Below are positions 1 to 60,000 of a stretch of DNA of 64,000 bases, piece after piece. The DNA comes from Camelus ferus. Its lineage: Eukaryota. Each line of letters opens with the position of its first letter. Position 1 is the first letter of the stretch. The translations under genes and the position numbers were made by a program. The notes under the pieces were generated by a model. That model saw only the letters and a list, made by a program, of their open reading frames with translations, made no database searches and was not told where the DNA came from. The stretch is taken from contig NC_045696.1 in assembly GCF_009834535.1 (NCBI RefSeq), positions 27,902,001 through 27,966,000 on the forward strand, in the 5' to 3' direction.

Positions 1-2479
1 GGGAAGAAAAGGGAAATAAATTTTACAGATATACTAGTAACATTAAGGCTGCTTTGTTAATGAAGGGAAGAAGGGATAGCACATGCCAGGGTAAAAATCT
101 CACTAATTAGAAACTGGGGAGATCTTACTATCAACTAGTAGAGTAAGATCAAGAATGAGTTCTCAGTTAGACCCACATTCTTTGTCAGTCATTGTGCTCG
201 ATGTGAGGCAATGAAAAATGACTGAGAGATGCTCGTGGCTCTCACGTTACAGCCGACAGGGCATTCAAGTAGAGGTATAACATGGATCAAAGCACAGATG
301 CAGGGGAGGGTGGCCCAAGCAGGAGACGGGGAGAAACACTTCCAAGTAAGTACCGCCTGCACTAAAGCGACTACACTAGAGTCGTGTCACAGAGATGTCT
401 GAAGCCAGATGAAGGATTTTGGACCTAATTCCCTGGCACAGTGGAGCACCCACACCTTTCAGAGTATGACAGGTGATGCTTTGAGTGTGGAAAGATAATA
501 ATAGCCTTATTATTAGACTATTCTTATTTTGTACCAAAAAGACAAGAAAACTTAAGCTTTATTCTTATTTATCACACAGGTTTACACTGACTTCTTCAGC
601 CAGACATATATCAGAATGGTCATTTGTCATATATGAGAAGGCACAGCTTCCTGAAAAGAGCAGGGTAGTAATTTTGCAATCTAGACAGGGTGGCAAGTGG
701 AATCCTCCTTCATCTGCCTGCTTTCAGCACTTTGTGAATGATTTAAGAGTTTAGATGCACCCAGGGAAGGACATTTGAGATCACCATATTTAGTCTGAAC
801 TAAGTTAGACCTCGTGAAGTGAGCAAGCACATGAAAAGATCCCTGCAAAGAAACTATGGGCTGATGATAATGCAGGTATAAGTGAACCAGAAAACGGCAG
901 AGGAAACAATAGGAACAGTGACTATCACTACTGCATTATTGGATGAAAATCAGGGACATCTACAATTCAAAAGAGATTATGTTCAGACTACTATTTAAAG
1001 TATGACTCTACCTGCGTGCATGAGTGTGTTTCTATGTATAATGCCTTCAAATATTAGCTAATGATAGTAAAATGCTGTCAATGGTTAGCAAGATATCTGT
1101 TTAAATGACTTATTTCATGTTGATCTCATTCCTGCCTGTTCTCCAGTATTTATTTTCATACATTTCACAATGCCCATCGACACAATGACACATTTATGTA
1201 CTTCATAAATAAATTTTAAAATACACCATGAGAAGTGCTCCATTTCTTTAAAGTACAAGAATGAGCCATAAAAATGTTCATTCTAGACTCTATCTAGAAA
1301 ATGGAATGCCATGAAAGGTTTTAGAGTAAAATAATCAAATGTTCAGAACTTTGCTTTAGCAATATTATTCTGACTGCGATGTACAGGATAAATTAGAGAC
1401 GCATAATGGCTTTGAGAGATGATGTCAAGGCAGTCTTTGTGACCTGTCATGTGGGTAGCCTAGGAGTTTCTTGCAAGCAGAGGCTGTGTTCTCCTAATAT
1501 TGGTGTGATTAGCAATATCTCATGTGATAGAGGCATATTAGAATTGCCTGACACATATTTGTTAAGTTGAATGGAATACTTACAAGCTCATCTCTTTGTT
1601 AAGCCTTTGAAAGATCACTGTCAATGTCATCTTTTGACTAATCCGTCATACTGGAAGTATGGTCTTTTCTCCCTTTCCCAGAACATTTGATATTCCTGCT
1701 GCAGCCCCTGGACTGTTCTGCCTGATGCCATGCCTACCTATGTAATGCATGGATACATTCCAAGCAAATTTAGAATGTAAACTCTTCGAAAGGGGAACAT
1801 ACAAGATTTATCCAACTACCTAAATGAGAATTTATACATTCATATAATTAAACAGGGATAGGGAGAACTATAGAGAGAGTTAGAGCCTGGGACTTGAGTG
1901 TATCAGTATCTCTACCCCTCTCTCTCCTGTCTCCCTTGGTCAGCTTCCCTGGGAAGAGGAGTGAGAGAGGCAGGTGGAGAGGGGGATGTCTGCTGGAACA
2001 GACTATATACATAACTATATATCAAATAATATTACCACAGAGAAAAAAACTCTTACCTAACTTTTGAACACAAAATCCTGACTGGACACCTTCAGCAACA
2101 TAGATTCCAAAGATAAGACACGCAAAGAAAATTTGAACTGTACTTGGCAGTACTGTTAGTACTAGTAATTGTTTTGTGCATATTGTAGGGTAGAACAAAT
2201 AAATGCATATATTAGTATAGTTGAAAACCAGGATTCTCATGATGGGAAATGGAGCTAAAAATATGGAATCAAGGTTAAGGGATATAGAAAATAAATAAGA
2301 AAACATAGAAATACACAATCTGATTTCCAATAACAATAAGATCCAAAAAAAAGCAAGACAGAGTCATACGAAAATAAGTGAGACAGTATTAGCCAAAATT
2401 AGCCAAAATCACATAAAAAAACTAATTTGGAGGAGAACTCTGAACATCTAAGTGGACACATTCATCATCCAACTTGGGA

Positions 2480-3800
2480 GAAGATCATCCTGAACAGAGG
2501 AAACAGCAAGTGTCAAGACCCTGGGATAAGACCAGACCTGTCATTTGTGAGGGCTCTATGCCTTTCTTGGGTCTGAAGGATTGTCACTGAAGCTGAGTTT
2601 GGAGGTACAGTTATGGTCCAGGTTAGAAAGAGTACTGAGGTCAAAAAAGGGAATTTGGATTTTCATCTGAGTGAAACAAGATGCTACTGGCCAGTTTTAA
2701 GTGAAGGAGTGATGTGATTTTGCTTAGGTTTAATTAGACTCATTTTTGTTTCTTTGTGAGAAATGGAGTATAAGAGTACAGGTATGGATTAATGGTAATA
2801 GTGGAGATGAAGAGAGGTAGATTAATGCAGGATCTGTTTTGGAGATAGAGTCAAACAAACCTGCAGCTGGATTGAATGGGAGAGAGTAAGAAGTAACAAG
2901 ATGAATCCAATACTTTCAACTGGATGAATGGACATATTGAATACTCGATGGGAAAGACAGAGGGAGGACCAGATGGAGATGAAGTGGTGGGAAAATCAAA
3001 TATTTTGTTTGGACCATATAGTGCTTGTGATGCTTACTTTACATTCAGTTGGAGATGTCTGGTAAGTAGTTGGATATACGATTATGGAGTTCAAACTAAA
3101 AAAGAAAGGAAGAAAGAATGGAATAATGGAAGAGAGGGAGGAATTATGGAGCTAGAGATACAAAGTTGTTAGTTACAGACACATAAGATGACATTTATAG
3201 GCAAGTGACTGTAAGAGATTATTTAGAGAAAGATTGTAAAACAAGCTGCAAGCTTAGGGTACACATATTCAGATATTAAGAAAAGGATAGGAAATATGAA
3301 AAGGAGACTGAGAGAGGGTATCTGACAAGGTATGAGAACAAAGTATGTGGTGCAGTGGAAGCCTAGAGATGTATATGTTTAAGAAGGAGTGAGCAATTGT
3401 CAAATGATGTTATGAAGCCAAAGTAAGAGGAGAAGTGACTACTGTGTTTGACAATATATAGAGGGCTGATGTTTCCAGTAAGATGAGTTCCAACTGGAGT
3501 GCTTAGTGTGGGTTCCTATCTGAACATGACTAGGAGAGACTGTAGTGAGGTAGGGGCAAGGGCAGTATACAGAACTCAAGAATTTCTGCTGAAAAGGAGA
3601 ACATGGAGGGAGATAGTCTAAGAGATAATTCTTTTTTTTTTTTCAAGATGGAGGATCTTAGGAGAGGATGACAAGAAAGCTCCTTTTGAAAGAAAGAGAT
3701 ATTAATGTCAGAAAAAAAAAGACTGCAGAAAAAATATTCGTTGAGGCGAGAGATGATCAGATCAAGAGCAAAAGTAGCTTTTAACAAAATAGGGGGATTG
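2480..3800 (-). mobile_element. Ancient LINE-2 remnant
   Basis: Purine-rich stretch with motifs typical of antisense L2 (gaatttggattttcatctgagtgaaacaag, ggagtgatgtgattttgcttaggttt, ggagatgtctggtaagtagttggatatacg). Boundaries approximate. Confidence 0.7.
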
Positions 3801-5769
3801 TTGCACTAGAAGTGAAGGCAGAAAATATGCATATAATATGGATATAGTTGATAGACTAGGCAAAGGCACAATGAAAATGATTACTGCAGATTACTGTTCA
3901 TATTTCAGAATGTGAAATATTGGTGCATATATGCCAGGGACAGAGGGAATGGTGGAAGGAGGTGTTGGAGGCCTGAAGGGAGAAACGAGAGTGAGAGTGA
4001 GGGAAAGCAAATCTGAGAAGTAAATGCATAAGATGGGCAGCCAATTTTCAGTGCATATTTGCCCAACTCGCAAAGGAAAGCAATACTTTTAGTTTGGGTG
4101 TGTGCCGGGAAAGGATGCTAGTGTGATAGATGGACAGCTGTGTTGTGAAGACCTGAAACAGAACATGTTCAAAACTGGAGAAAAAGGAAGAATGTTTTAA
4201 GGATACCCCCAAAGCACTGCTCTAACAAAACAGCACAGTTCTCAATGAATTATTAAAAATAGCAGTAACAGATCACAATATAGGTCCTATAGTAGTACTC
4301 ACAGGCCAAAGAATTCTACACATTCGGTATCATTATCATTTTAATGTTGAGCTTATTTTGCAGTCTAAGAAATAGTAAATGACCATTTCAACAGCTTGTG
4401 ACTCAGTCCAATTATAAAGTAAGGAATACTATTTTTTGGTCATAGTGTAATTGTTTTCATTCAGAAACTCTCCCAAACCTCCTACTTCCCCATCCTCACC
4501 CCAATATAGCATTCCATCATTATAGCCCCACCTAGGAATGCAAAAACTGAAATTTTCAGTATAATATGCAGAGATATTTATATGCTATGAACTATATACG
4601 GTACTCTTCCAAATTAATCTGAGGTATACACTTTTTATGAATGGGTTTTATTGTTGACATTATCACTGGGAGTTAAGAGGGACAGAGAGATATATCATTA
4701 TGGCCACAAGATACAAGTAAAGATCACTTAGTAAGAACTGTAATTGTTTTTGAATACTTAACTATTGCATTTGCAAATAGAGGCTTCAGTTTGGGTTCAA
4801 ACAAAGTTGTTATGACATGATAAATGAGAAATCAATAGGAAAATAAATGGTTTCCAAAAGGCAAACTCACAAGTACCATTTTTTCCTTAATCTGCATCCA
4901 AATTTCTAAGACTCTCCAATTGGTGTGTCCATATATGAAGAAGTGTTATCTCTTATTTGAAGGCTGAAACACTATAAAGCAGGCAAGGACACTGGACCAG
5001 AAGCCCAGATTTCTTTTGTTCAGAATCCCCTTTAAAAAAAAGGAAAAACAAAGGGGAGCCTAAGGAAATAGTCCATCTCTCATCTATTGCTCAAGGAATT
5101 GATCCTCTAAGAATGTGTCAGAGAAGCAGTCACAGAGTGAATGTCCAAACCATCTGCCACAGGCCTGCCAAGAGAAATGGGTAAGCTAAACCTGCCCTGA
5201 CAAGACTTTACCATAATTGGCTGGACAAACAGATCTTTTTCGTCAAAGAAAACATTTTGTGTATCACAGTTTTACTAAACGAATAATGCTTGAATAACAA
5301 GTTATTTTTTGTAAGAAATAATTACCGGTTTTGGAGAGAATGCTATAAGCCATGTAATTACAAGATCAAATGAATCTGTTGCTGTCATAAATTTCTCTTG
5401 ACAGCACTTCAAGAGAAAGATATTAAAGTATGAATGATAGGAATGAAATAGTAGTCTTAATGCATGAGATTATTAGAATGGGTTTTAACTTCAGGGAGAA
5501 AGATATTCCAAAAGTGGGTGGCACTATTTTACAACAGACAATATATTAATGACCTTTCTGATTATTCAATATAAAAATACACTTCTACAGCATGACTAAA
5601 TAAAAAAAAAAAACTCATGTGAAACCTCAAAGCTAGGACCCATTACACTACCCAATTAATATTTTCATGTGATTTCCCCTAAGGCAATAAAAAGATCATT
5701 GTTTATTCACAGGCACAGACAGTATATCATTGAAACAAATATTTAAAACTATTTTAAAATAATATAACT

Positions 5770-5900
5770 GGAAGAAACACTAGAGATCACTTAACCCAAA
5801 CTTCTCATTTCACAAATAAGAAAACTGAGACTGAAAAATTAAATGACTTGCTCAAGGTCACAAATCATGAACAGCTGTCAGCATCAGGCCTAACCTCGTC
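5770..5900 (-). mobile_element. MIR SINE fragment
   Basis: Antisense MIR core: catttcacaaataagaaaactgagactgaaaaattaaatgacttgctcaaggtcaca. Confidence 0.8.
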
Positions 5901-6324
5901 AAATCTGAAAAAGTCTCTCCCTTTTCCTTTGAAACATAATCCACTCTACTCTTCCAAATGGACTGTTTCTCTCTCCTACCCTTTCAGTGTTCTATCTATG
6001 ACAAATTACTCAGGACTTCTTTCTCTGTACAGAAGTCATTGCCATGTTGGGCCTGTCTTCCATACTTGTCCCATGTATCATGCCTTCCCAATGCTATTAA
6101 GCCTATCTGATACAGTAAATTAGAAATCGAGGAATGCTGGTGCAGAATATTGTAGTTTTTCTACTTTGAGTGGAGAATGAAAGATGGGGGGGACACAAAT
6201 TTTGATAACTTTTTTAGGGAGACCATCACTTTTTTAATCACTCAAAGTTGTAATGGGAATTTTGAGCCCAGTCTCTTAACCGCTGTGAGTTGGTTACTCT
6301 TCATAGATGAGAAAATAGCCAACA

Positions 6325-6512
6325 CTCAGGGGTTAAAAGAATAGGCTCTAAAATAGACTTATGTTTCAATCTAGGTTCCGCTTTTTTACAAGCAGTGATT
6401 TTAAGCAACAACTTCCTCATCAGGACAGTTTGAAGATTACGTGAGAATATCTATGTAAAGTGTTTACAATAAAAATGAGCACAGAGCAGAAGCTAAATGT
6501 CAAGTTATTATA
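6325..6512 (+). mobile_element. MIR SINE, degraded
   Basis: MIR-like 5' part and 3' part (gaagattacgtgagaatatctatgtaaagtgtttacaata...cacagagcagaagc). Confidence 0.6.
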
Positions 6513-6569
6513 TCTAGTGGATATTGTTCAACTCCTCCATCTGTTGTCATCCTGTTAAAATCTGAATGC

Positions 6570-7560
6570 TTCTGTGTCATTCCACTGAAACCACTCTTGA
6601 AAAGTATGACCTATGACCAATTAAATGTCAAATTCAGTGACCCATTTTTAGTAGCTGTTCTATCTCAACACTCTCCAACACTTGAGACTGCTTACCTCTC
6701 TGGGTGTCTTCAAATTCTCTCCTCCTTTGACTTCTGTGAACCCCCACTCTCCCCAGCACCGTATATATCAGACTGTTCCTTTCTTTCCCCTCTACCTTTT
6801 ATCTTGATGATGTCATTTACTTCAAAGCTTGCAACCAGTCCCAGAATGCCAGGAACTCTGATGTCTATTTCTGGTATTTTTCTAATTCCAGAGATACATA
6901 TAGACTCTAATTTCAAACTGATTTCTGTGTATTTTTATTCTAATGCACGGGACCAGAAAACAGAACTCATTCAATTTTCCTACAACTAACTATCCCTGAG
7001 TTCCCTGTCTTTAGAAATGTTATCTCCATCTACTTCATTGAGTTTCACAAAGGCTTCTTTAATTCTTTTTTCCAGCATGTCTTGAATGACAGCTCATCCC
7101 TGTTTGCTTGGGATGGTTTCAATTTATACCTACCATTTCATCTCCATTATTAATTGAAATCTCTTTCACTCTTAAAAGTGTTGTAGTATGGTTGATAAAT
7201 TCTGTGATTATCCTAATCATGTTAGGCATTCAGCCTACTTCACAATCATTATCAGACTCTTGGTATTTCTTTCCATTCTCTGTAGTGTAGGCTTCCATTT
7301 TGGTTTTCTTTCTGGACACTATCTAGTCTCTTTAAGGATCATTGATATCAATATATTTCTGATTACTATATTCTTCCATGGTTACTCAAATGATCTTCCT
7401 AAACACAAGCCTGGTACTATTATTCCCCTTCATAACGATGTTCACTCTTTCTCAACTGCCCACCACACAAAGTCCAGCACCCTCTTCTCACTAATTTTGC
7501 ATTTGCTCATCTCCCTTCCTTACTACATTTAGACTCAAGGATAGGCCATATTGTAGATCA
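6570..7560 (+). mobile_element. LINE-2 remnant (RT region to 3' part)
   Basis: cattccactgaaaccactcttgaaaagtatgacctatgacc...aaattcagtgacc matches the recalled L2 RT-region consensus; pyrimidine-rich continuation. Confidence 0.7.
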
Positions 7561-8625
7561 GTAGTTTTATATTAGAGAATATAACTTAATAAAGAGTAGA
7601 CATGTAGTAATGTCTTTCTACAATAATACCTCTGGAAAAAATGCTAGCAGACTATAGCATTTCCTGATATCAGTCATTGAAGAGGGATAATATGCATTCC
7701 TGCCTGCCTGGCAGGGCCACTGTAAAACACAAGTGTGACAATGCAAGCATGTTCAGCATCACCATACAAGGTGCATGACTATTGGTTTTGTTATTGTTAT
7801 TTTTCTCTCTCCTACCCAAAATAGATGCATTTACTATTAATAGAGGCTTTCATTAAGGATCGAAATATTCAAATGAGTGTTTCTGCTATTCACAGGGAGG
7901 AAAATGCATTCTCCAAAAAGTAAATTTTGTGAGAACTCCATTATCAAAATTTCCTTTCTTTGATTAAAAAACTATATATTTAGGACTTACATTTTCCCTA
8001 TTTTTAATAGCAATTGAAACCCTTAAAACTATAGAATGTAACATTTGATATAATCTTCTTAAGATTTTACCTTTTACAAATTTATAGATGGTCAAATTAC
8101 TTTCCTGAGTTTTAAAACCAAATGGGGGGAATGATACCTCATCAGAAATAGGTTCAAATTTCATCCTCATCACCTTTAGAGAGCAACACACTATGGAGTA
8201 TATTAACTCCAGTCCTCAACCTCTAACATTGACAACCAGGACTAAGGATGCACATAAACAGAAAATACCAAGATAAAAAATACTAAAAATGCAGAATCAG
8301 AAAGCATATGCATGTATATAAATTTCATACTCCAAAAAATAAAAGTGAATATTGTTTATTTATTCTCATCCTTTTAGATATTTATGTCTACATTACATAT
8401 ATGTGTGTATGTATATTCCATAACTTTATTAAATATATATTCCATAAATTAAGGGAATGCACATGCTCTTAAACTGGTTTTCTGACCGACCAAGCACTTG
8501 CAAATAAATTTGATTGGACTACAGGAAGTTGCCTTTTTTAAAAAGGGAATTTGAATATCAACAGTTTCCTATGGTTCAAATTAATAGCAAATGGGAACTG
8601 GCTAAGAGTATTTAAATTATTCTGC

Positions 8626-9597
8626 TCACGTATATATGGTCAATTTATTTAGGGAAAAGGAGTCAAGAATATACAATGGGGAAAGGATAGTCTCTCCAAT
8701 GAATGATATTGAGAACACTGGAGAGCCACATGCAAAAAAAAAGAAAGAAAAATTAAAAAAAGAAAAGCAAGAAACTGGACCACTCTCTTAATACACACAC
8801 AAAAACTAACCCAAAATGTATTAAACACTTGAACACAAGACCTAAAGCCACAAAACTCCAAGAAGAAAACATAGGCAGTAAGTTCCTTGACATAGGTCTT
8901 GATGATGATGTTTTTGGATTTGACACCAAAAGCAAAGGCAACAAAAGCAAAAAGTTCTTGTTCACAATTGGGACTATATCAAACTAAAAAGCTTCTGTAC
9001 AGCAAAGGAAACCACTGACAAAATTAAAAGGCAACCTACCAAATGGAGAAAATATTTGTAAATCATAAGTCTGGTAAGGAGTTAATATCCAAAATATATA
9101 AAGAATTCATAAAACTCAATAGCAGAAAAAAAAACTGATTAAAAAATGGGCAGAGTATCTCAACAGGCATTTTTTTCAAAGAAGCATGAAAGATGGCTAA
9201 CAGATACATGAAAAGACACTCAACATCATGAATCATCAGCAAAATGCAAATCAAAACCACAATATCACCTCACACTTGTTTAGAATGGCTAGTATCGAAA
9301 AAACAAGAAGTAAGTGTTGGCAGAGACAGTGAAGAAAATGGAAACCCTGTGCACTGTTATTGGGAATGTAAATTGGTGCACCCACTATGGAAGACAGTAG
9401 GAGGTTCCTCCAAAAATTACAAATAGAACTACCATGTGATAGTAATTCCACTTCCAGGTATTGACCCAAAGGAAATGAGAACATTAACTTGAAAAGATAT
9501 GCACCCCTATGTTCACTGCAACTTTATTTACAATAGCCAAAACATGGAATCAACCTTAATGTTCACTGATGGATGAATGGATAAAAAGATGCTATAT

Positions 9598-9642
<45 letters not shown>

Positions 9643-10106
9643 ATTTGTCTATAAAAGAGGGAAATCTTGCCATTTGTGACAAATGGATGGGTCTTGAGTG
9701 CAGTATGCTAAGTGAAAAAAGTTAGCAGAGAAAGAAGAATACTGTATAACCTCACTTATGTGTGGAATCTAAAAATAAGAGGCAGAGGGTGGAGGGGGAA
9801 GAGCAAAATGGCTGAATGGGGTCAAAAGGTACAAACTTTCAGTTATAAAATAAATAAGTAATGACACAAGTAATGTACAGCATGGTGACTATAGTTATTA
9901 ATACTGTATTATATATTTGAAAATTGCTAAGAGAATAGATCTTAACAATTCTCATTGCAAGAAAAAATTTTGTTACTATGTTTAATAATGGATGTCCACT
10001 GGACTTATTGTGGTGATCAGTTCACAATATATACAAATATCAAATCATCATATTGCCTATTTGAAACTAATATAATGTTATGTGTCAATTATATCTCAAT
10101 AAAAAA
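8626..10106 (+). mobile_element. 5'-truncated LINE-1 (L1MA8/9-like): decayed ORF2 C-terminus plus 3' UTR
   Basis: ORF2-like motifs (MQIKTT, ggaaaggatagtctctccaat, atgttcactgcaactttatttacaatagccaaaacatggaa) with frameshifts. The 3' UTR ends gtcaattatatctcaataaaaaa. Contains (CA)n at about 9602-9636. Confidence 0.92.
9602..9636. repeat. (CA)n microsatellite inside L1
   Basis: Directly visible. Confidence 0.95.
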
Positions 10107-12424
10107 GTATATATTTTTATTTATAAATTAGAACAACTTGTATATTTTAAAATGAAAATCTAGGAGAATTCCTTATTAAGGATAAAAAAGCTAATATATT
10201 TAACTGGAAATCCATAATTGGAGAATAGAGTCTTTATTATTTCTTTATGATATAATGTTCACATTCATGTTCACTTCATCCGTGATGCACACATTTGTTG
10301 ATCTTTCGACAGATTGTTAAAGGGCCATTTAGACTGAATAATTTTATAATTTGAAATCCTGTTTAAATGTAAGTAATTTTGAAACATTCAACTACATGGT
10401 TCATGTTTCAGGAAGAAAAGTAGACCCATTTCAAAGACTACACATTGGGAATTCCTTTCATGTTCATTGCCAATCAATATTGTGGAGTCTCTAGTTGATA
10501 AAATACTAAATGTATGAAAATGTTGGGGGGAGTGGAGTGGAGTAGAAGAATCCTAAAAGAGTCAAGTGCTCCAAGCCCTTTTATTTTATACATAAAAAAC
10601 TGAGATTCAATGACTTGAAATAGTAATTTGGTCATTTGGAGTAACTATTAGGAAACCTGAAGAAAAAGAAACAATAAAAGATAATCAATCTGCATAACCA
10701 AAGATACACTTGCACTGGATCTAGTAGACTTTAGAACAGGATCTATTGACAATGCATTGATCCTGTAAGGCATTTAGTATGTAATGAACTAGACAGCTCT
10801 CGGGGAGTTCTGCAAGTACAATACCATGGCCTTGAGAGAAGAATGGGTAGCATGATGATCTGTATTTCTTAGTCTATTGAGAATTTCTCAATCAGGATTT
10901 CTCAGCTATTTCACTATCTAAAGTCATTTGAAATTTTATAATAACATTGAAATGTTTCATAAAAATGACCCATAACAGAAGTTATAATTATTAGATAGGT
11001 TCAAATTGTATCTCTCTCTTTCTCTCTCTTCCAATAAAAGATAAAGGTTAAAAAAAAATCTTATTATTGGGGAATACTGTTTAAATTGACTTAAGGTTTT
11101 CTAGGGTACATGATGGTCAAAGGATCAGATGAAAGCACCCAAGAATCACAGAGGATAGTTCTACCTTGTCTGCAACGAATGTAGTAGAGGATTGGAGGTG
11201 TCAGAAGTGAGAGATGAGGGGAAGCAGAAAGGTTGAAGTGAACCGCGGGTGAAGTTGAAAAATCTATGAAATCTGTGTCTGCGTATGATTAGAAAACAAT
11301 TAAGAGAATAGAAAATGTTGTAGCTGAAGAAATGATGGATGATAGGGCACTGTTTTTAAGAAAAGGGGAACAAAGGCCAGAGAGGGAGGTGAAAGAAAGA
11401 TATTTTAAAATCTGCAACCTTACAGAGAAAACAAAGGAATATCGCCTAAAGTAGAATATAATGCAAACACGATTCAATTAGCTTAAAGCCACTTGTCATG
11501 GAAGAGACACTTGGGGAGAATTGGAGAAAAATTTTAAAATAAGCGTATTTTGGTTCTAAAAATCCTTTAGCTTGATATTAACTTGAGATGAGGACTAGAA
11601 AAAGAAATCTGGGCATCTTCAGAAGAGAGCATGTAGTTAAAATCTTGGGAATAATTGAAACTTCCGATGGAGGAGGTCTAAACTAAGGAACGTGATGGGT
11701 ACTGATGACCTGCTAAGACCTCCCTCACAAACGGCAGAAACAGGAGGACTGATATGAGAGGAATGGACTAATACAAGGGAGGCTGTGCTTCAGTGCAGTC
11801 TTATTACAGAGATTATTTTCTAACAGGCAATAGATACAACTGATGAAACGTTACACCATCAACAAGAAAGAGAAGGGAAAACACCAAAGTCAGCTTTGAA
11901 CCGGTGGATAGTTTTAGTTGTAGTAGGAAGGTCACTAAAACCTGAATATCTGGATTAGGTAGAGGAACTCTGAAGAAGTAGCCATGGTTACTGATAGAAA
12001 CTTAAGTCAATAGAAAAAGAAAAAGTCCCACAGCATGTTCGAGACTGAATGCTTCAGGGGAAAGAAACAGCAGGGCAATGAATGGTGACCCTGTGAATTT
12101 AGATTTCTCTTAGTACCACAGAAGAGACTAGAGAATGGGGAATATTTGATGAAGCAAATCAAAAAAAGTTACTTGGCAATAAGATTTCTTTTTGGTGGAG
12201 GACTTGATTTTTTTTTTTTTAATTGAAGATTTTGGAAGAGAACTTGCACATAAGGGAAGTTTTCAGATCAGATAAAAGTACAATAGTTTGTGTGTACGGA
12301 GGAGCTGGAGATGTGTCTATGTCCAGTGAAAATGCTCTCGCGATTCTCTCTTCCTACTCACATAAACAATGCAATAAGATGAATGAAACTTTAACAGAAA
12401 GCACAAATAAAGCAAGTCAATTTT

Positions 12425-27790: not shown

Positions 27791-29344
27791 AGTTTTAAAT
27801 AGAAGCTAGAAGTTCAGATTATTATGAAGACTCTCCTAACAATTAAAGCAAAACTGATAAGGCTGTAAAATTCTTAACTAGGCCTATAAGGAAGAGCACT
27901 CTGAATCCACTTCTAACGTAAAATTTTCAAACTCTTTGAGTCAAGAAATACTTCTTGAATGCCTGTAACACATCAGATATATTATCAGTAGAAAATATCC
28001 GTAAAATAAGCTCATAATGTAAAGAGCAGACCTTTAAGCAGATAGTTTTTCACATGATATGATAAACGTAAACATCCATATGCAGTTTCTGTGGAATCAC
28101 AGACAAGAAAATGTCTGACTTTCTGGGGGCATTAAAGAAGGCTTTTTTTTTTCTCGTTCCTATGATGAGCTGTAAAATCTAACCATACTAGGAAACTCCC
28201 CATTCTCCAAAAGAACATGAACTTTCCAGACTGTCAGTTCTTCTTATATTATCTTTCTCCTTGAAATACCTTTTACCCATCTCTACTCTGTATAATCCTA
28301 TTAATGCTTAATAGCTTTAACAGAAGTTTATCTTCTCAGACTTTCTCAGGCATAACTATCCATTTTTCTCATGACTTATTCGTCTGAAAGTAGAAAACTC
28401 AGCAATTATTTTAGAGTTTAAAAGTGTGTGAGTGTGTATGTTCACATGGACGTGTGTGTGCCACACTAGGTATGTAGCTCATTGTGGGCCTGACTGTATT
28501 ATATTCTGTTTATAGCCCTAAATTCAGTAATTACTGCTGCACAAGGAAGAAAATCATCAAAAGTCTATTGAACTGACAGTACATTTTTCTTACATTATTG
28601 GGTATTAATTTGAGTTGGTAAATTTTTAAATTAAAATATGACTCTTTCAAAGAGCCACAATAACTTCTTTTATGCTCTCAACATTATTTATATGCTGTCA
28701 TTTGCTTTCCTTGTTCATAAGTATCACAAGATGTTACAAATAAACAGGAAATTCTACTTACATTTATTTCCTTTTAGTTAAAGTCAATTAGAACCATCAA
28801 ATAAAAGCAGGACTTAGTCTCTTATAATACACACTATACTAGTGAAAGCTCAAAGCTTACAGTCTCTATTAACTTTCAGCTCACGAGACCTTGAAGATCA
28901 AGAGGGAGCAATTATAAATATGGGGTGTGTATTGAGTTATATGCTCTCATTTGCTTTCTTTGGCCACTAGTATTACAAGATGTTATAGACAAATAGGAAA
29001 TTCTAGTAACATTCTCAGACTAGCCCTCAAATTTGCAAACTTGTTAACATAAAGACACTGAAGATTATCAGCAGATGGGTTTAATCTGCTCTAAAGTTAT
29101 GAACTGGTACAAAGCCAGTTATTTGGCAGTCACACCCTAAATTCCACACGTCTACAGCTATTTCAGCTTAAAACATGAAACAGGTAAAGTGCGTTTCCAC
29201 TTGGCTGTGCAAACACACTCTAGTTTGAGTTGACGGAGGTGAGCAATCTCATGCTTCCTAAGTGAAACTGATCAGTACCATCATGTTAACTAACCTAATA
29301 AAAAATCCTGACTCATGGGAATTACTGGGAGCAGTCAAAAACCT

Positions 29345-30680
29345 CTGGCAATTCACTCATTTCAACATGTGCTTTCTGAGCACCCAACATGCGTCAGGCA
29401 GGAGGCTAATTGCTGAGGAGTTGCAGTGAATCAAATGATGTGGTGGTTGCCCTCATGGAGCTGATATTCTAGTAAATGGAAATAGATGCCATGTAACAAA
29501 ATCCCACCATTAGATACTTTTAAATTGCATCTGCCATTAAGTGAAAGGGAAAGTGTCATAAAGAGATTGTAGCAAAGGGTCTTCAAGGTTCTTTGAGGAA
29601 GTTATATGTAAGAAGAGATAGAATGAACAAGCACATTCAAGGCGAACGTGGAAAATACAGAAAATATGTTCAGCCAGACAGAAATCTTATGCAAAATTTT
29701 CTTAGGCATAGGAGAACTTGGCACATGTCGGGATGAAAGAACAGCTAAAGAGATAGGTGGAGAACTTTTCCACTGGAGAACTTTTCCATTTGAGCCTTTT
29801 GGTTTGAAAGCTTTGTTAAGAATTCTGAACTTTATTCTAAGGTTTTAAGAAAGAATAGATCTTTGCATTAAAAGGTTATTCTCCTTCCTTTCAACAGAGA
29901 GAAAATTATGGAGGATGTCACGATGGAAGTGGGAAGACCAGTTAGGAGACCTTATATAATGATAAGATAATAATGATAAGAGCAGGGTGGGTGTAGCTCA
30001 ATGGTAGAACACATGCTTAGCATATGTGAGGTCCTGGGTTCAATCTCCAGTACCTCCATCAAAAAATAATTAAAAAATAAAAATAATTTTAAAAAGACAT
30101 ACTAGTAGTGATAGAAATAAAGAAAAATAAATGGAAGTGAATATGTTAAAAACATTCTGGAGGCAGAATTGACAAGACTGGCTAATGAATTGTACATAGA
30201 GGGTAAGCGAAAAGGGGTTTCAAGGTTGCTGCTAGGTTTTGGAGATGAAAACCTTAGAGTGGAACTATCCAGTAAGATTTGAATATCAGGGGTGACCAGC
30301 AGTCTTTTGAAATTAAAATGTTTTCCTTTGTTAAATAACTTTCCAAGATGTCACTACCACTTCAAGTCAGATAGGGAAGGGATGCAGAGAGTAGAATGAG
30401 AAGGAAAAAAATACATTCCTATATATATATAAATAAAATCTTAAATCCAGTGAGAATCAGCATATTTGTTCACAACATATAAAGTCTTAATTCTCACATA
30501 AGGGAGATTTAAATTAAATAAAGAATAATGGCTATAATGTGGTAAATGGATTTGGAGAAGTAAGAGTTGTAACTGGAAAACCAGTTATAGGCTATTGCAG
30601 AAGTCCAAGCAAGAGATGATAATAGCCTTGTGTTCTGGCAGTAGAGATGGACAGATGGATAGATCTTAAAGAGATGAAAT
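29345..30680 (-). mobile_element. LINE-2 remnant(s), interrupted by a SINE at about 29985 and by the ERV insertion at 30681
   Basis: Antisense L2 3' end (attcactcatttcaacatgtgctttctgagcacccaacatgcgtcaggca...gccctcatggagctgatattctagt) and ggaaaaccagttataggctattgcagaagtccaagcaagagatgat. It resumes briefly after 32177. Confidence 0.7.
29985..30094 (+). mobile_element. tRNA-derived SINE, camelid Vic-1-like
   Basis: A box gtagctcaatggtaga, B box ggttcaatctcc, about 75-nt tRNA-like head followed by an A-rich tail. Not a functional tRNA. Confidence 0.85.
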
Positions 30681-32164
30681 CGTTCTAAGGCAAAGGGAGA
30701 TAAACTTAGACCTGCCTAGCAATTAATGTTTTAATATTTTATAAATGACACAGATAGTTTCAAGTTTTAAGTACCAAAATTTGGAGAGACAATTTTAGAT
30801 ATTTTCACAACTCCTATAGAGTTTACCCAAAATCTCTTATTTTGTTTACTTTTTTGAAAGTTTTTTTACATTAGGAGAAAAAAACTAAAACATAAGTTTC
30901 CAGTCAGGAAATGGTGATATGACAACCAATTCACAGTTGCTTGCTTCTCATTTTTTGCCAGAGATTTAAGTTCTTTAAGGGTTAAAATTATATGTAATTA
31001 AAGTTCCTAAAATAAGCATTTCAATATACAGTGGAAAAGTAAGAGATATGTTTTCAGGAAAAGAGTTTCATAAAAAAATAACTAAAGAATTTGAAGCATA
31101 ATCAGGATTTAAAGTATTTAACAAATTCTAAAAGTTCTTTGTAGCTCCAGTTAACTTTAAAATGCTTTTAAAAAAAAACTGAGGCATCTTGGATATTAAG
31201 TTAACTAAGATTATTTAATATATTAAGTTAAATATAATCAGTCATAATTCTAATAATTACAAACAAGTCTCTATCGATTGCAGACATTTAACCATGCTTT
31301 TTAAGTCTTTTCGTCGTTACAGACTGTTAAACTGCTGTTGCAAAGCTGCTTCATCTTTAAGGAAATTCGTCAGAAGTCAGTGAAAACAGTGGGTTACAAC
31401 AGTCCCACATCAGATGATGGCTGTGCCAGGATTCCAGCCCACACCCTCAGCCCTTGGATGCAAAAGCAAACAGCTGTCCTGCCCCTGGGGCCCCTAGATT
31501 AGACATTCAGAGATTTTTACTCCCTGATAGACAGGCTCAACGCCCCTACTCAGCCCGGAATTAGTTTCAGAAAACGGACCATCACCCCTCTGTAACTCCA
31601 TAAGATTATGGGAGTAAAATCTCTGAGGGGGGAATGAGACAGGAATAGGGCAGGGCACAGCCATTCAAGGAATAACACAACAATGAACACCAGAATGGCA
31701 AAAGATTCAACGCCCAGTCGGCCCTGAGGCTCAAGCTGGTGAGAGATCTGACTTCTAGTTGATCTTGAGCTTCATTATACGCCCATTGTAACATATGAGC
31801 ATGGTGAATAACACGTCCACAGGCACCATGGCAGTCCCAAGGCTAGCCACAAAAGGTCAAAGAGTGGGAAATGGCCAACTTCCTGGGAATCCCAGCCCCT
31901 TCCCCAGGCTAGTTAGACTGGTCCTTCCACTTATTAGCACAAGAAGCCACTGAGCCCATGAAAGCTGACAACACAGCGCTGCATGGCCACTGTCCCCTCT
32001 CTCTCCCTCTTCAGAGATGGCCCACACTCTGTCTATGGAGTGTGTACCTACTTTTACTCTAATCTAAGCACCCAACCCCCTACACCTCATGGCCTTTCTC
32101 TTGCCTTTTGATGTATCTCTCTAAATAAATACCTTTACCCACCCCCTACCCCCTAAAAAGAAAG
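30681..32164 (+). mobile_element. ERV1-type fragment: non-coding internal sequence, PPT (31625-31634), 3' LTR U3-R (from 31635) and A-rich tail
   Basis: Purine tract gaggggggaa followed by TG start. AATAAA at 32124-32129, A-rich tail from 32155, no U5/CA end. Flanking repeats aaagagatgaaat (30668-30680) and aaagaaatgaaat (32165-32177). Confidence 0.8.
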
Positions 32165-33199
32165 AAAGAAATGAAATTGATAAGACTTGGTGTTCCTTTG
32201 GTTGCAAAACACGCATCCATGTTTATAATTGTCAGTTACAGACAGGATTGCCTAGCCATGTGTAACACTAGTGGTTACTTCTTGAACTATAAATCAACAA
32301 AAACATGTGTGACATCTTCATACCATATTTTACAGGAGAAAGCACTTGTCTAGAGGATAATATTCTGACTACAACTACAGATGGTCTTAAAAGATATATT
32401 TTATTCCTATGGCCTTTTGCAAATTTCTTGTTTAAACATTACGTCCCTAATCCTTAAACCAGGACCAGGAGGGGTTGATAAAATGCCCTACTTCTAAGGG
32501 ATATCTGCCTATTAGGCCCCCTAGCACAGCATCTAACACATTGAAGACCCTCAACAAATAGCTCACACAAGTAATTCATTGGTGTGAACATGTCAGAACA
32601 AAAACTGTGAGTGCTGGTGTCTTGTGTTCTTACCTGCTTTACTTCCTCCAGGAAGTTACTTCCTCCAGGAAGCCCTAAATCCATCCCTGGTACCTGCTTT
32701 TAAAGGGATACCAGTGAATTTCTTTTGATGGCTTATGAAAGAGGATTCCCCATTTCTTAAAAGCATTCTGCCCATTGTTTGTATTTTGGTATCACGTTAT
32801 AGTAATCCATAGTATCATGGCACATCAGAGATGGATGAGAACTTAAAGCTCAAACACAATTACTTTTATATTGCCCGAATTGGATTCAGTATGTTAGGTC
32901 TATAAAGATACATGCCCCAATGCCATGACCAATGAAAACATCTTTAGCCGTGGTAACATCTTACTCTATGCACAGGTAATCAGAACAGTTATTTATACAT
33001 AGTTGCAATCATTATTTAATTGATGAATAATTAACAAGCAAAGAAAGAGAACTGTTTTATGCAAATAACATTAACACCAATTTTTAATTGGGCACACAAG
33101 TATATAAAATAGGCTACTAGCAGACCTGAAATTCTTTTAGTAACTATGGGAGCACAATTGATACCTATGTATATAGATAGATGGATAGACACTTGGATG

Positions 33200-37007: not shown

Positions 37008-37617
37008 TTTTTTTTTTATTGAGGTATGATTGATTTGCATTGTTGTCTTAGTTTCCGGTGTACAGCATAGTGATTCATTTATATATATTCTTTCTCATAT
37101 TATTTTTCATTATAGATTAATTCAAAATATTAAATAATGTTCTCTGGTTCTCTGGCCTATACAGTAAGATCTTATTGTGTATCTGTTTTATATATAGTAG
37201 TTTGTATCTACTAATCCCAAACACCTGATTTATCCCTTCTTCCCATCCCTTTTCCTTTTCCCTAACCGTAAGTTTGTTTTCCATGTCTGTGAGACTGTTT
37301 CTGTTTTGTAAATAAGTTCATCTGTATCATTGTTTAGATTCCACATATAAGTAATATCATATGATATTTGTGTTTCTCTGTCTGACTTAATTCACTTACT
37401 ATGATAATCTCTAGGTCCATCCATGCTGCTGCAGATGGCATTATCTTATTCATTTTTATTGCTGAGTAGTATTCCATTGTATAAATATACCACAACTTCT
37501 TTATCCAGTCATCTGTTGATAGACATTTAGACTGTTTCCATGTTTTGGCTATTGTAAATAGTGCTTCTATGAACATTAGGGTTCATGTTTCTTTTCCAGT
37601 TACAGTCTTCTCTGCAT
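37008..37617 (-). mobile_element. 5'-truncated lineage-specific LINE-1 (ORF2 end, 3' UTR, polyA)
   Basis: ORF 37334-37576 is the L1 ORF2 C-terminus (MFIEALFTIAKTWKQSKCLSTDDWIKKLWYIYTMEYYSAIK); poly-T at 37008-37017. Confidence 0.93.
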
Positions 37618-39183: not shown

Positions 39184-39262
39184 TGAATGAATGAATGAAT
39201 GTTTTTAATGTTGGTACCGGGGATTGAACCCAGGACCTTGTGCTTTCTAAGCAAGCACAGAG
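39184..39262 (-). mobile_element. 5'-truncated Vic-1-like SINE with (ATTC)n tail and 12-bp flanking direct repeat
   Basis: ggggattgaacccaggaccttgtgc is the antisense B-box region matching the 29985 copy. agaaacattcaa occurs at 39172-39183 and 39263-39274. Confidence 0.8.
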
Positions 39263-41576: not shown

Positions 41577-42169
41577 TATTCAAAAGGATAAGTGCACCCC
41601 AATGTTCATAGCATCACTATATACAATAGCCAAGACATGGAAACAACCTAAATGTCCATCAACAGATGACTGGATAAAGAAGTCGTGGTATAGTTATACA
41701 ATGGAATATTACTCAGCCATAAAAAAGAATAAAATAATGCTATTTGCAGCAACATGGAAGGACCTAGAGATTATCATTCTAAGTGAAGTAAGCCAGAAAG
41801 AGAAAGAAAAATACCATATGATATCACTCATATGTGGAATCTAAAAAAGGGAAAAAAAAGAGGACACTAATGAACTACTAAATCTACAAAACAGAAACAG
41901 ACATGCAGATGTAGTAAACAATCTTATGGTTACTGGGGGAAAGCAGGTAGGAAGGGATAAATTTGGGAGTTTGAGATTTCCAAATGTTAGACACTGTATA
42001 TAAAAATAGATTAAAAAATTCTTCTGTATAGCATGGGGAACTTTATTCAATATCTTATATGAAAAAGAATATGAAAACAAATATATGTATGTATATGGAT
42101 GACTGGGACATTGTGCTGTACACCAGAAATTGGCACATTGTTACAGGCTGTACTTCAATTAAAAAAAAA
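41577..42169 (+). mobile_element. 5'-truncated lineage-specific LINE-1 (ORF2 end, 3' UTR, polyA)
   Basis: KDKCTPMFIASLYTIAKTWKQPKCPSTDDWIKK is the L1 ORF2 C-terminus. The 3' UTR is homologous to the copies at 37 kb and 58-59 kb. Confidence 0.93.
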
Positions 42170-46855: not shown

Positions 46856-46932
46856 GGTGGGAGGATGGGGGTTGAACCCAGGACCTCTTGCATGCTAAGT
46901 GCACACTCTACCACTGAGCTATCCCTTCTCCC
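46856..46932 (-). mobile_element. Vic-1-like tRNA-derived SINE head
   Basis: ggggttgaacccaggacctcttgcatgctaagtgcacactctaccactgagctat is the reverse complement of the head at 29985. No A-tail visible. Confidence 0.85.
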
Positions 46933-57069: not shown

Positions 57070-60000
57070 AGTTTAACAAAGTCACCTTTTTAAAAATGTT
57101 AGCAACACCAATTACAAAAATAATGAAAATCAGTAAGTACCTAGATGTAATTTTTAAAAAGATATATGTGATCTTTAAGGAAAAAATGAAAATGTTTTAT
57201 AGAAAGATATTAAAGAATACCTAAATAAATGGAGAAATATACAGTACACATTTTGTTAAAATAATGAATGTAACAATGATACGATATTTCAACAAATTGA
57301 ACTAAGATTCAATACATTATCAATGAAAATCCTCTTAGCATTTTCCATTGAACTTGACAAACATTCTAAAATCTACATGTGCAAAGAATATAACAAGATG
57401 GAGAATTTATCCTACTGAATATAAAAACTTATTCCACCTGTGACAATGGTTTTATTACTGAAATAGAAAAACTTCTGTATGAAATGGGGTGAAGAACAGA
57501 GGAGGAAAAGTAGGCATATATGGAATCTTGATATGTAAGTGGGCATTGCAGACAGGGAAGAAAAAGATGAACTTTACAGTAAATAAAGGCAGCATAATTG
57601 GCTGTCCACATGAAAAAAATTAAAGAATCCCAAATTTATACCAATCATAAAAAATCTATTCTAGGTGAATTAAGCATTTAACTATAAGCCCAAATGATAA
57701 AACTTGAAGAGATAATACAGAATATATTTATCACTATGAGATGAAACATTTCTTAAACAAATGACACAATTACAAATTATATAGACAGGTTGTTAATTTC
57801 AGCTATATTAATAATGTATTTTCATGAAAAGACATCATAAAGAGACTAAAAAGAAATCACAAACCAAGAGAAGATATTATGTACATAATATTTATGCAAA
57901 GGCTAAAGGAAGAACTGCTAATAATCTAAAATAAAATGGCAAACAAAAGAACTTTTAAAATTTTTATATATTTAGTTTAAAAAGACATCCAAATGACCCA
58001 TACACATGTAAAGAGCAATTAAGAAAATGCACATTTGCAGTGGAGAAAAGACAGTCTCTTCAACAAGCAGTGTTGGGAAAGCTGGATAGCTGTATGTAAA
58101 TCAATGAAGTTAGAACACACTATACACAAACATAAGCTCAAAATGCCTTAAAGACTTAAACATAAAACAAGACAGTATAAAGCAAAAAGACACTATAAAG
58201 TCAAAAGCTTTTGCACAGCAAAGGACACCATAAAGAAAATGGAAGGACAACCTACATAATGGAGAAAATATTTGCAAATCATGCAGCTGACAAGGGCTTA
58301 ATCTCTAGAATATACAAATAGCTCATACAACTTAGTAACAAAAAATCCCCAAACAACCCATCCAAAAATAGGGAGAAGATCTAAACAAACATTTCTCCAA
58401 TGAAGACATACAAGTGGCCAATAGGCACATGAAAAAATAGTCAATATTGCTAATTATCAGACAAATGCAAATCAAAACTACAATGACGTATCACCTCACA
58501 CTGGTCAGAATGGCCATTATTCAAAGCCTACAAACAATAAATGCTGGAGATGGTGTGGAGAAAAGTGAACCCTCCTCTAGTGTTGATAGGAATGTAGTTT
58601 GGTGCACTGACTAAGGAAAAACAGTAGGAGATTCCTTAAAAAACTAAAAATAGACATATTCTATGATCAGTAGTTCCACTCTTGGGCATATATCTGGAGG
58701 AAACTCTAATTCGAAAAGATAAATGCACCTCACTGTTCATAGCATCACTATTTACAATAGCCTAGACATGGAAGCAACCTAAATGTCCATCAACGGATGA
58801 CTGGATAAAGAAGTTGGGGTATATACATATACACACATACATACAAACACACACAATGGAATACTACTCAGCCATAAAAAAATAAGCTAATGCCATTTGC
58901 AGCAACATCTAACATGGATGAACCTGGAGATTGTCATAGTAAGTGAAGTAAGCCAATAAAGAGAAAGGAAAATACCATATGATTTCACTTATATGTGGAA
59001 TTTGGGGAAAAAAAGGACACAAGTGAACTTATTTACAAAACAGAGACAGACTCACAGACATAGAAAACAAACTTATGGTTACCAGGGGGAAAAAGAAGTG
59101 GGAAGGGATAAATTGGGAGTTTAGGATTTGCAGATACCAACTACTATATATAAAATAGATAAACAACAAGGTCCTACTATACAGCACAGGGAACTATATT
59201 CAATATCTTTTAATGGCCTATAATGAAAAAATATGAAAAGAAATATAAATCTGTATGTGTATAAGTTCATCACTATGCTGTACACCAGAACTTAACACAT
59301 TGTAAGTTGACTGTATTTCAATTTTTAAAAAAGGAATGATTGGAAAAAAAAAAGTAAATGCACATTAAAACTATAATGGAACCATTTCACAATTATCAGA
59401 TTGACAAAAATATAAAAGCTAGTCAATACCAAGAGTTTGCCAGGATACTGAGAAGCTGACATTCTCATCCACTGTGGGCAAAAGTGTAAATTTAAACAAG
59501 AACTTTGGAAAGATTTTGTATCACCTAAGACATTTGAACATTCGTATGTCCTACAACAAGCAATTTTATTCCTAGATTTTTATTTCAAAGACGCTCTTGA
59601 ACATGAACACCAGGAGATAAATATTACAATATCAAAAAGCTTTGTTTGAACTTTTAATTTTTTGAACTCAAATTCAAATATTTATATCTATCAACAGGTG
59701 GCATCACTGTTTAAACTCCATTATTTAAAAATAACGGAAAATAAAATGTCCATGAATGATGAGAAGGATACATAAAATGTAGTGTTTTCTGTTGAGTACC
59801 ACATAGGAATAATAGCAATTCAATAATGCTGTGTGCATCATCAGAAATAAATATCAGTAGTAGTGTTGAGAGGAAGGAGTCATGGACGAATACATAAAAT
59901 ATGATTCTCTTCATCTTAAGCTTAACAACTGACAAAGTAAACAATTCATGCATGCTAAAGTCGTAAGAAAAAGCAGGAGAAAGATTAACACACACAAAAA

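What the first reader, a model, noticed from the sequence alone, without database searches (positions are those of the whole stretch)
30668..32177. Endogenous-retrovirus RNA apparently retrotransposed by L1 machinery (ERV processed copy)
Seen: internal sequence, then PPT (31625-31634), then TG-starting LTR, then AATAAA (32124), then an A-rich tail about 25 nt later, with no U5 or terminal CA. The insert is flanked by 13-bp direct repeats matching 12/13 (30668-30680, 32165-32177). The left one sits in a tt|aaaga context, and the interrupted L2 appears to resume after the right one. Established: retroviral integrases give 4-6 bp TSDs and complete LTRs, whereas polyA, a long TSD and TT/AAAA-like sites are L1 TPRT hallmarks; this route is known for primate HERV-W. 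Inference: a non-autonomous ERV1 family in this lineage spreads at least partly via L1. I do not know whether that has been described in camelids.
Basis: partly seen in the sequence, partly recalled or inferred. Interest (0 to 1): 0.7.

Follow-up and report, generated by a model that had tools for sequence, protein, structure and literature searches.

The report
L1-copied, front-flipped retrovirus RNA fragment
A 1.5-kb scrap of an old endogenous retrovirus was pasted into this mammalian genome from its RNA by the LINE-1 jumping-gene machinery, with its front end flipped; the route is known from primates, and this is a clear single example in a new family, not yet a family-wide habit.

Summary
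Contigs of four public runs laid on the locus show that multi-copy family sequence starts just inside the left 13-mer and stops before the right one. Other copies run on past AATAAA into U5-like sequence that this copy lacks; in one RNA library the loose ends there turn into an A-run. With the 12/13 repeats (chance 11 of 3778 control windows) and the TT|AAAG site, an L1-made copy of an LTR-terminated RNA is well supported (0.88). The family looks MER41-like (recalled, no library). Weak points: a decayed, C-rich tail, four unassigned bases at the 5' junction, no empty site seen, L2 continuity not significant. The wider inference, that the family spreads via L1, is untested: most LTR contigs carry U5, as solo LTRs would. 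L1 copies of ERV RNA are known (HERV-W family-wide; single HML-2 and ARTenvV cases). New member of a known kind; moderate interest.

The parts
30666..30667 (+). TT of the L1-endonuclease-like site (TT|AAAG; one base off TT|AAAA)
   Evidence: sequence
30668..30680 (+). left copy of the 13-bp target-site duplication
   Evidence: chance estimate
30681..30684 (.). four bases not assigned to target or family (untemplated, or decayed end of the inverted piece)
   Evidence: family match starts at 30685 (tables 5 and 8)
30685..30870 (-). inverted segment of ERV internal sequence (second-primed cDNA); right end approximate, 30870-30908
   Evidence: opposite-strand joints 30685->30878 (6 contigs, 4 of 4 runs) and 30685->30896 (3 contigs, 3 of 4 runs), table 5; piece 2 of table 8
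30878..31624 (+). non-inverted 3' internal sequence, AT-rich, non-coding (longest stop-free frame 65 aa)
   Evidence: multi-copy depth, table 2; frames
31625..31634 (+). polypurine tract
   Evidence: sequence
31635..32141 (+). 3' LTR, U3-R only; match to the family ends about 32138-32143, at a CA 11-12 nt behind AATAAA
   Evidence: 71 X2 contigs have heterogeneous loose ends before 31635 (agreement 0.36); loose ends behind 32130 show the family going on; depth falls to near single copy from 32150
32124..32129 (+). polyadenylation signal AATAAA
32142..32164 (+). non-family tail: 13 C-rich then 10 A-rich bases; read as a decayed poly(A)
   Evidence: near single-copy depth in bin 32150-32223 (1.1x and 1.5x)
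32165..32177 (+). right copy of the target-site duplication
30560..30667 (.). left host flank, old L2-like repeat (label recalled)
   Evidence: aligns with a second L2-like stretch at 29925-30230
32178..32201 (.). right host flank, in register with the same L2-like stretch, weakly
   Evidence: 164 of 2000 controls as good

Best explanation
An RNA that carried the 3' part of a non-coding ERV1-type (MER41-like) provirus and was polyadenylated in the R region of its 3' LTR was captured by L1 ORF2p. The endonuclease nicked TT|AAAG in an old host repeat; reverse transcription from the poly(A) copied about 1.26 kb; the second cut end primed the same RNA internally and copied about 190 bases the other way (twin priming); the two cDNAs were joined, leaving TSD - inverted piece - forward piece - U3-R - tail - TSD. 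The copy has no 5' LTR, primer site or U5 end and is dead. Shown: boundaries, loss of U5, inversion, repeats. Inferred: that L1 was the enzyme, that the C/A-rich stretch is a decayed poly(A), the family name, the age (tens of millions of years).
For: Family sequence is confined between the two 13-mers (table 2). Family copies continue behind 32130 with shared non-A sequence in 35 (X1), 39 (X2) and 12 (X15) contigs, while in RNA run X16 (9 contigs) the shared letters give way to an A-run about 20 nt behind AATAAA, within some 8 nt of where this copy leaves the family (table 7). 5' inversion whose RNA-3' end lies 4 nt from the left repeat and joins the start of the forward piece in other copies (table 5); 5' inversion by twin priming is a listed TPRT hallmark, 18-22% of L1 and 3 of 23 processed pseudogenes (PMC12016303 passages). 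TSD 13 bp, 12/13, chance 11 of 3778. Defining signs of HERV-W processed pseudogenes (U3-R 3' LTR, tail, TT/AAAA, 5-15 bp TSD) are met where testable.
Against: Tail is 9 A of 23 and starts C-rich. Four unassigned bases at the 5' junction and no visible microhomology; only 3.9% of 5'-inverted L1 carry extra nucleotides there (PMC2912911). No empty-site joint among the 15 of 144 joints shown. L2 continuity not significant. The inversion rests on short contig sides (28-82 letters) laid at 80% likeness, and its right end is blurred (30870-30908).
Confidence: 0.78

Rival explanations
1. Same L1 mechanism, other RNA: an orphan 3' transduction (an L1 upstream of a provirus read through and ended at the LTR polyA signal) or a host read-through transcript ending in the LTR. 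The copy is 5'-truncated, so the RNA's start is lost. Then ERV RNA was a passenger, not a preferred substrate.
For: All end structures are identical to the best explanation. L1 prefers its own RNA in cis (established knowledge, recalled).
Against: Everything retained is family sequence (multi-copy depth throughout); family sequence is plentiful in two RNA or RNA-like libraries (1515 and 1739 contigs laid), though DNA can be in them.
Confidence: 0.1
2. An ordinary provirus, integrated by the retroviral route, later lost its 5' part and U5 by deletions and suffered a small inversion; the 13-mers are chance.
For: Old element (26 listed pieces of other copies differ by a median 14.3%); A-rich 13-mers match by chance in about 0.3-0.5% of windows; tail is not pure A.
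Against: Needs three coincidences: 3' loss at the polyA site, an inversion ending at the insert edge, and 12/13 repeats exactly at both independently mapped boundaries with a TT|AAAG site.
Confidence: 0.08
3. DNA-level capture: a fragment of family DNA or cDNA patched into a double-strand break, or an assembly artefact.
For: Unassigned bases at the 5' junction.
Against: Both junctions are held with 0 differences in independent runs (table 8); break repair does not explain ending at the polyA site with a 13-bp duplication.
Confidence: 0.04

Closest known systems
HERV-W processed pseudogenes of Catarrhini (PMC5016936, PMC5537654; Pavlicek 2002 as cited there)
   Same: 3' LTR cut to U3-R, tail, TT/AAAA-like site, 5-15 bp TSD; L1 acting in trans on ERV RNA.
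   Different: Other lineage and other ERV family; HERV-W has more than two thirds of its members made this way, here one copy is shown; this copy has a 5' inversion (the words inversion/inverted do not occur in PMC5016936; Pavlicek 2002 could not be read).
Single L1 retrocopies of other ERV RNAs: HML-2 2q32.1 (PMC3590776), ARTenvV retrocopy of Hippotraginae (PMC9604959), HERV-H as cited in PMC3590776
   Same: One-off copies with 13-14 bp TSD and short A tail; the HML-2 case also has a 12/13 TSD; ARTenvV is in an artiodactyl.
   Different: Those are spliced, partly coding RNAs; this is a non-coding 3' fragment with an inversion.
5'-inverted (twin-primed) L1 and mRNA retrocopies (PMC12016303, PMC2912911)
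   Same: TSD - inverted piece - forward piece - tail - TSD, the two pieces adjacent in the source RNA.
   Different: The template is ERV RNA; extra bases at the 5' junction are rare in 5'-inverted L1.
MER41_Vpa / MER41B_Vpa / MER41C_Vpa, camelid MER41-like ERV1 LTR families (Kelly et al., PMC9435751)
   Same: Recalled resemblance of the LTR to MER41; thousands of LTR copies (1715, 978 and 1537 alpaca copies in Table S13; depth here about 1000-10,000 times single copy); GAS-like motifs at 31664 and 31880.
   Different: No sequence comparison with the Repbase entries was possible; no L1-made copies of these families turned up in the searches named in the full report.

Membership tests
L1-made ERV processed pseudogene (HERV-W type) | 3' LTR truncated to U3-R while the family LTR has U5 | tested here: met
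   tables 2 and 7
L1-made ERV processed pseudogene (HERV-W type) | poly(A) tail behind R | tested here: inconclusive
   non-family tail present, but 9 A of 23 and C-rich at its start
L1-made ERV processed pseudogene (HERV-W type) | TSD of 5-15 bp at the element's boundaries | tested here: met
   13 bp, 12/13, at independently mapped boundaries; 11 of 3778 controls
L1-made ERV processed pseudogene (HERV-W type) | TT/AAAA-like insertion site | tested here: met
   TT|AAAG, one mismatch; such sites are common in AT-rich DNA
L1-made ERV processed pseudogene (HERV-W type) | 5' LTR truncated to R-U5 | not testable with these tools
   the copy is 5'-truncated; no 5' LTR is present
L1-made ERV processed pseudogene (HERV-W type) | empty orthologous site with one copy of the repeat | not testable with these tools
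   no genome held; no such joint among 15 of 144 shown; paralogous L2 test inconclusive
Twin-primed 5'-inverted retrocopy | 5' segment inverted, its RNA-3' end at the 5' TSD, adjacent in the source to the forward segment | tested here: met
   opposite-strand joints 30685->30878/30896, 9 contigs, 4 of 4 runs
Twin-primed 5'-inverted retrocopy | microhomology at the 5' and inversion junctions | tested here: inconclusive
   tool gave no letters across these joints; 4 unassigned bases at the 5' junction
Integrase-made provirus or solo LTR | complete LTR ending in U5...CA with a 4-6 bp TSD | tested here: not met
   U5 absent in this copy; 13-bp repeats
MER41_Vpa group (ERV1) | sequence match to the Repbase/Dfam entry | not testable with these tools
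   no repeat library; resemblance recalled; two window motifs not found in 11 of 16 supplement files of PMC9435751
MER41_Vpa group (ERV1) | thousands of LTR copies, few internal copies, non-coding internal region | tested here: met
   rough depth ratios 1000-10,800 (LTR) against 5-214 (internal), (the tool warns that depth is no copy number); no frame over 65 aa
HERV-W group itself | primate LTR17/HERV17 sequence | not tested

The most novel reading that the evidence does not exclude
A camelid MER41-like non-coding ERV family was, like HERV-W, a preferred L1 substrate: a sizeable share of its few internal-bearing copies are 5'-truncated or 5'-inverted processed copies ending at R plus poly(A). 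The U5 majority among LTR contigs does not exclude this, since solo LTRs dominate them, and internal depth climbs towards the 3' end (5-48 times single copy over 30670-31335, 72-214 times over 31336-31631), as 5'-truncated copies would give (deletion variants or sequence shared between subfamilies near the PPT would too). It would be a second family-scale case, outside primates, and a comparison for what makes an ERV RNA an L1 substrate.
Probability: 0.2. Interest if true: 0.65.

Novelty: new member of a known kind. Interest (0 to 1): 0.38.

Why it matters
Reviews call HERV-W the only HERV group mobilised by L1 at scale and say that the determinants are unknown (PMC5537654); even New World monkey ERV-W shows no such copies (PMC6995185). 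A well-marked copy in an unrelated, non-primate, non-coding family shows that the route is open to other ERV RNAs, fixes the family's polyA site in the genome, and gives a cheap test (sort all internal-bearing copies by their ends). As a single dead copy it has no known function and changes no model.

Tried and rejected
Whole-genome classification of copies: no genome held. No second family copy in the window (self-BLAST). Motif scans for other copies: viral contigs 0 hits; metagenome contigs 14 hits and prokaryote genomes 10 hits, none of the 24 matching beyond the motif, so chance. L2 continuity: nhmmer of the joined flanks against the window found nothing significant (3 hits, E 7-9); pairwise test against the upstream L2-like stretch 164 of 2000 controls as good. 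Gene context: 106 stop-to-stop frames against Pfam, none at a curated cut-off; Rfam gave only the tRNA-like SINE head. The idea that the family LTR ends naturally at 32150 was rejected. Assembly artefact rejected (table 8). Earlier scan notes: nothing by sequence or by the first word search; four unrelated twin-priming notes from other genomes, not used. PMC8219666 and PMC11359688 passages added nothing.

Full report
Observation. The right 13-mer has no other match with at most one mismatch on the + strand of the window; the left one has one more (52620). Holding the real right side fixed, 10 of 1889 plus-strand and 1 of 1889 minus-strand control windows gave a 12/13 match. The tail is less clean than described: 32142-32164 holds 9 A in 23, 13 C-rich bases followed by 10 A-rich ones. 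No other copy of the element lies in the window and no whole genome is held.

Evidence from other copies. One search listed 24 runs; I laid 4 of them (two whole-genome contig sets of coded organisms A and B, one RNA-Seq run, one run guessed to be RNA) on 30300-32500 at 80% likeness. The output was cut: 15 of 144 joints, 24 of 1499 loose-end rows and 32 of 15,792 pieces were shown. Depth is near single-copy level outside the insert, rises in the bin that holds 30685, reaches roughly 5-214 times single copy over the internal part and 1000-10,800 times over the LTR, and falls to 1.1 and 1.5 times in the bin from 32150 (the tool warns that depth is no copy number). So both ends of the family sequence, mapped without the repeats, coincide with the repeats. 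Seventy-one X2 contigs have unrelated loose ends before 31635 (agreement 0.36), which fixes the LTR start and is what solo and 5' LTRs give. Behind 32130, 35 (X1), 39 (X2) and 12 (X15) contigs go on with a shared non-A sequence; this copy follows it for about 11 bases, to a CA at 32140-32141, and then leaves. In the RNA-Seq run X16 the 9 loose ends (median 19 letters, so the far end rests on about half of them) share the same start and then turn into an A-run about 20 nt behind AATAAA: the family's polyA site, or DNA of processed copies. Contigs with 0 differences span the left junction (X1) and the right junction (X1, X2), so the structure is real and present in more than one sample.

The two top rows of the joint table are opposite-strand joints from 30685 to 30878 (2, 2, 1 and 1 contigs in the four runs) and to 30896 (1, 1, 1 and 0). 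Other family copies thus read the window's 30685-about 30870 on the minus strand and continue into 30878 onward on the plus strand. In this copy the first ~190 bases are flipped, the flipped piece's RNA-3' end lies 4 nt from the left repeat, and in the source it adjoins the start of the forward piece. That is the layout of twin priming (PMC2912911, part 1 of 5 and passages; PMC12016303, passages: 18-22% of L1 insertions, 3 of 23 processed pseudogenes). Against: the sides of these joints are 28-82 letters, the right end of the inverted piece is blurred (one piece was laid to 30908 with 23 gaps), no microhomology could be read, and four bases at 30681-30684 are unassigned, whereas only 3.9% of 5'-inverted L1 carry extra bases there.

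Surroundings. The flanks look like an old L2 (label recalled, no library). Joined flanks found nothing by nhmmer in the rest of the window. Against a second L2-like stretch at 29925-30230 the right flank falls in register behind the left one, but 164 of 2000 random right sides scored as well: inconclusive. No empty-site joint is among the 15 shown. None of 106 frames reached a Pfam cut-off; Rfam found only a tRNA-like head at 29987-30058, a SINE by my reading.

Mechanism. An RNA ending at the LTR polyA site was taken by L1 ORF2p, primed at a TT|AAAG nick, copied for about 1.26 kb, primed a second time from the other cut end for about 190 bases, and sealed with a 13-bp duplication. L1 TPRT of an LTR-terminated RNA gets 0.88 in all: 0.78 for ERV RNA in trans and 0.10 for an orphan transduction or host read-through RNA, which a 5'-truncated copy cannot tell apart. 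Deletion of an ordinary provirus with chance repeats gets 0.08, DNA-level capture 0.04. The internal part is non-coding (longest frame 65 aa), and without a 5' LTR or U5 end the copy is dead. The 26 listed pieces of other copies that differ from the window do so by a median 14.3% (6.1-19.7%; biased to long, diverged pieces; pieces with 0 or 1 difference, taken as this locus, were left out), which suggests an age of tens of millions of years (rate recalled) and fits one mismatch in the TSD and a decayed tail.

Family. The LTR resembles MER41 as I recall it; GAS-like motifs lie at 31664 and 31880. Kelly et al. (bioRxiv passages; PMC9435751 passages; Table S13 part 1 of 4) list MER41_Vpa, MER41B_Vpa and MER41C_Vpa with 1715, 978 and 1537 alpaca copies; 1227 of the 1715 have orthologues in wild Bactrian camel and none in pig, cattle or whales, so an empty site would be expected in those outgroups. 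I could not compare sequences: two window motifs were not found in the 11 of 16 supplement files searched; the 5 unsearched files may hold sequences that bear on the name.

What is known. HERV-W processed pseudogenes are defined by U3-R 3' LTR, R-U5 5' LTR, tail, TT/AAAA and a 5-15 bp TSD, and make up over two thirds of that group, which reviews call unique in this (PMC5016936 and PMC5537654, passages). Platyrrhine ERV-W shows none (PMC6995185, passages). Single cases exist for HML-2, with HERV-H cited (PMC3590776, passages), and for the ARTenvV gene in grazing antelopes (PMC9604959, passages). Pavlicek 2002 was not held, so I cannot say whether inverted HERV-W copies were described there. Ten searches (listings only, open-licence library only) showed no title or abstract start on L1-made copies of camelid or MER41-like ERVs; this is weak evidence of absence.

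Family-level claim. Not shown. In DNA runs the loose ends behind AATAAA are mostly U5-like (agreement 0.74-0.79), so the bulk of LTR copies came by the retroviral route. But solo LTRs dominate that count, and internal depth climbs towards the 3' end, so a substantial processed share among internal-bearing copies is not excluded (0.2). Motif scans for more copies found only chance hits.

Verdict. A real, well-marked L1-made, 5'-inverted copy of an ERV-derived RNA: new member of a known kind, interest 0.38; 0.65 if the family proves to be a second HERV-W-like case.

Noticed in passing
window 29987-30065: tRNA-derived SINE (Rfam tRNA, 29.8 bits) with A-rich tail inside an L2-like repeat; similar copies on the minus strand at about 39202-39253 and 46866-46899.
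   Followed up: partly
window 32009-32111: Other family copies carry duplications of about 46-95 bases in this part of the LTR (goes-back joints and loose ends), and some show polyA-signal-like ends at other aligned places: the family has several LTR length variants.
   Followed up: no
window 31238-31457 and 32153-32500: Contigs of the RNA and RNA-like runs match this very locus (0 differences in X15, 1 in X16; table 8); may be read-through or intronic RNA, or DNA in the libraries.
   Followed up: no
window 31664-31672 and 31880-31889: GAS-like TTC-N3-GAA and TTC-N4-GAA motifs in the U3 part; MER41-like LTRs act as interferon-gamma enhancers in cattle. No evidence of activity here.
   Followed up: partly
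window 37044-37612 (-), 41578-42141 (+), 58197-59303 (+), 8981-9775 (+): Several related repeat 3' ends, 72-90% alike, read as L1 by recall; shows that the lineage had L1 activity.
   Followed up: no
window 28688-28764 and 28937-29013: Local direct repeat, 77 nt at 83%, spacing 249: a small old tandem duplication.
   Followed up: no
window 32642-32672: Short tandem duplication of about 18 bases, seen.
   Followed up: no
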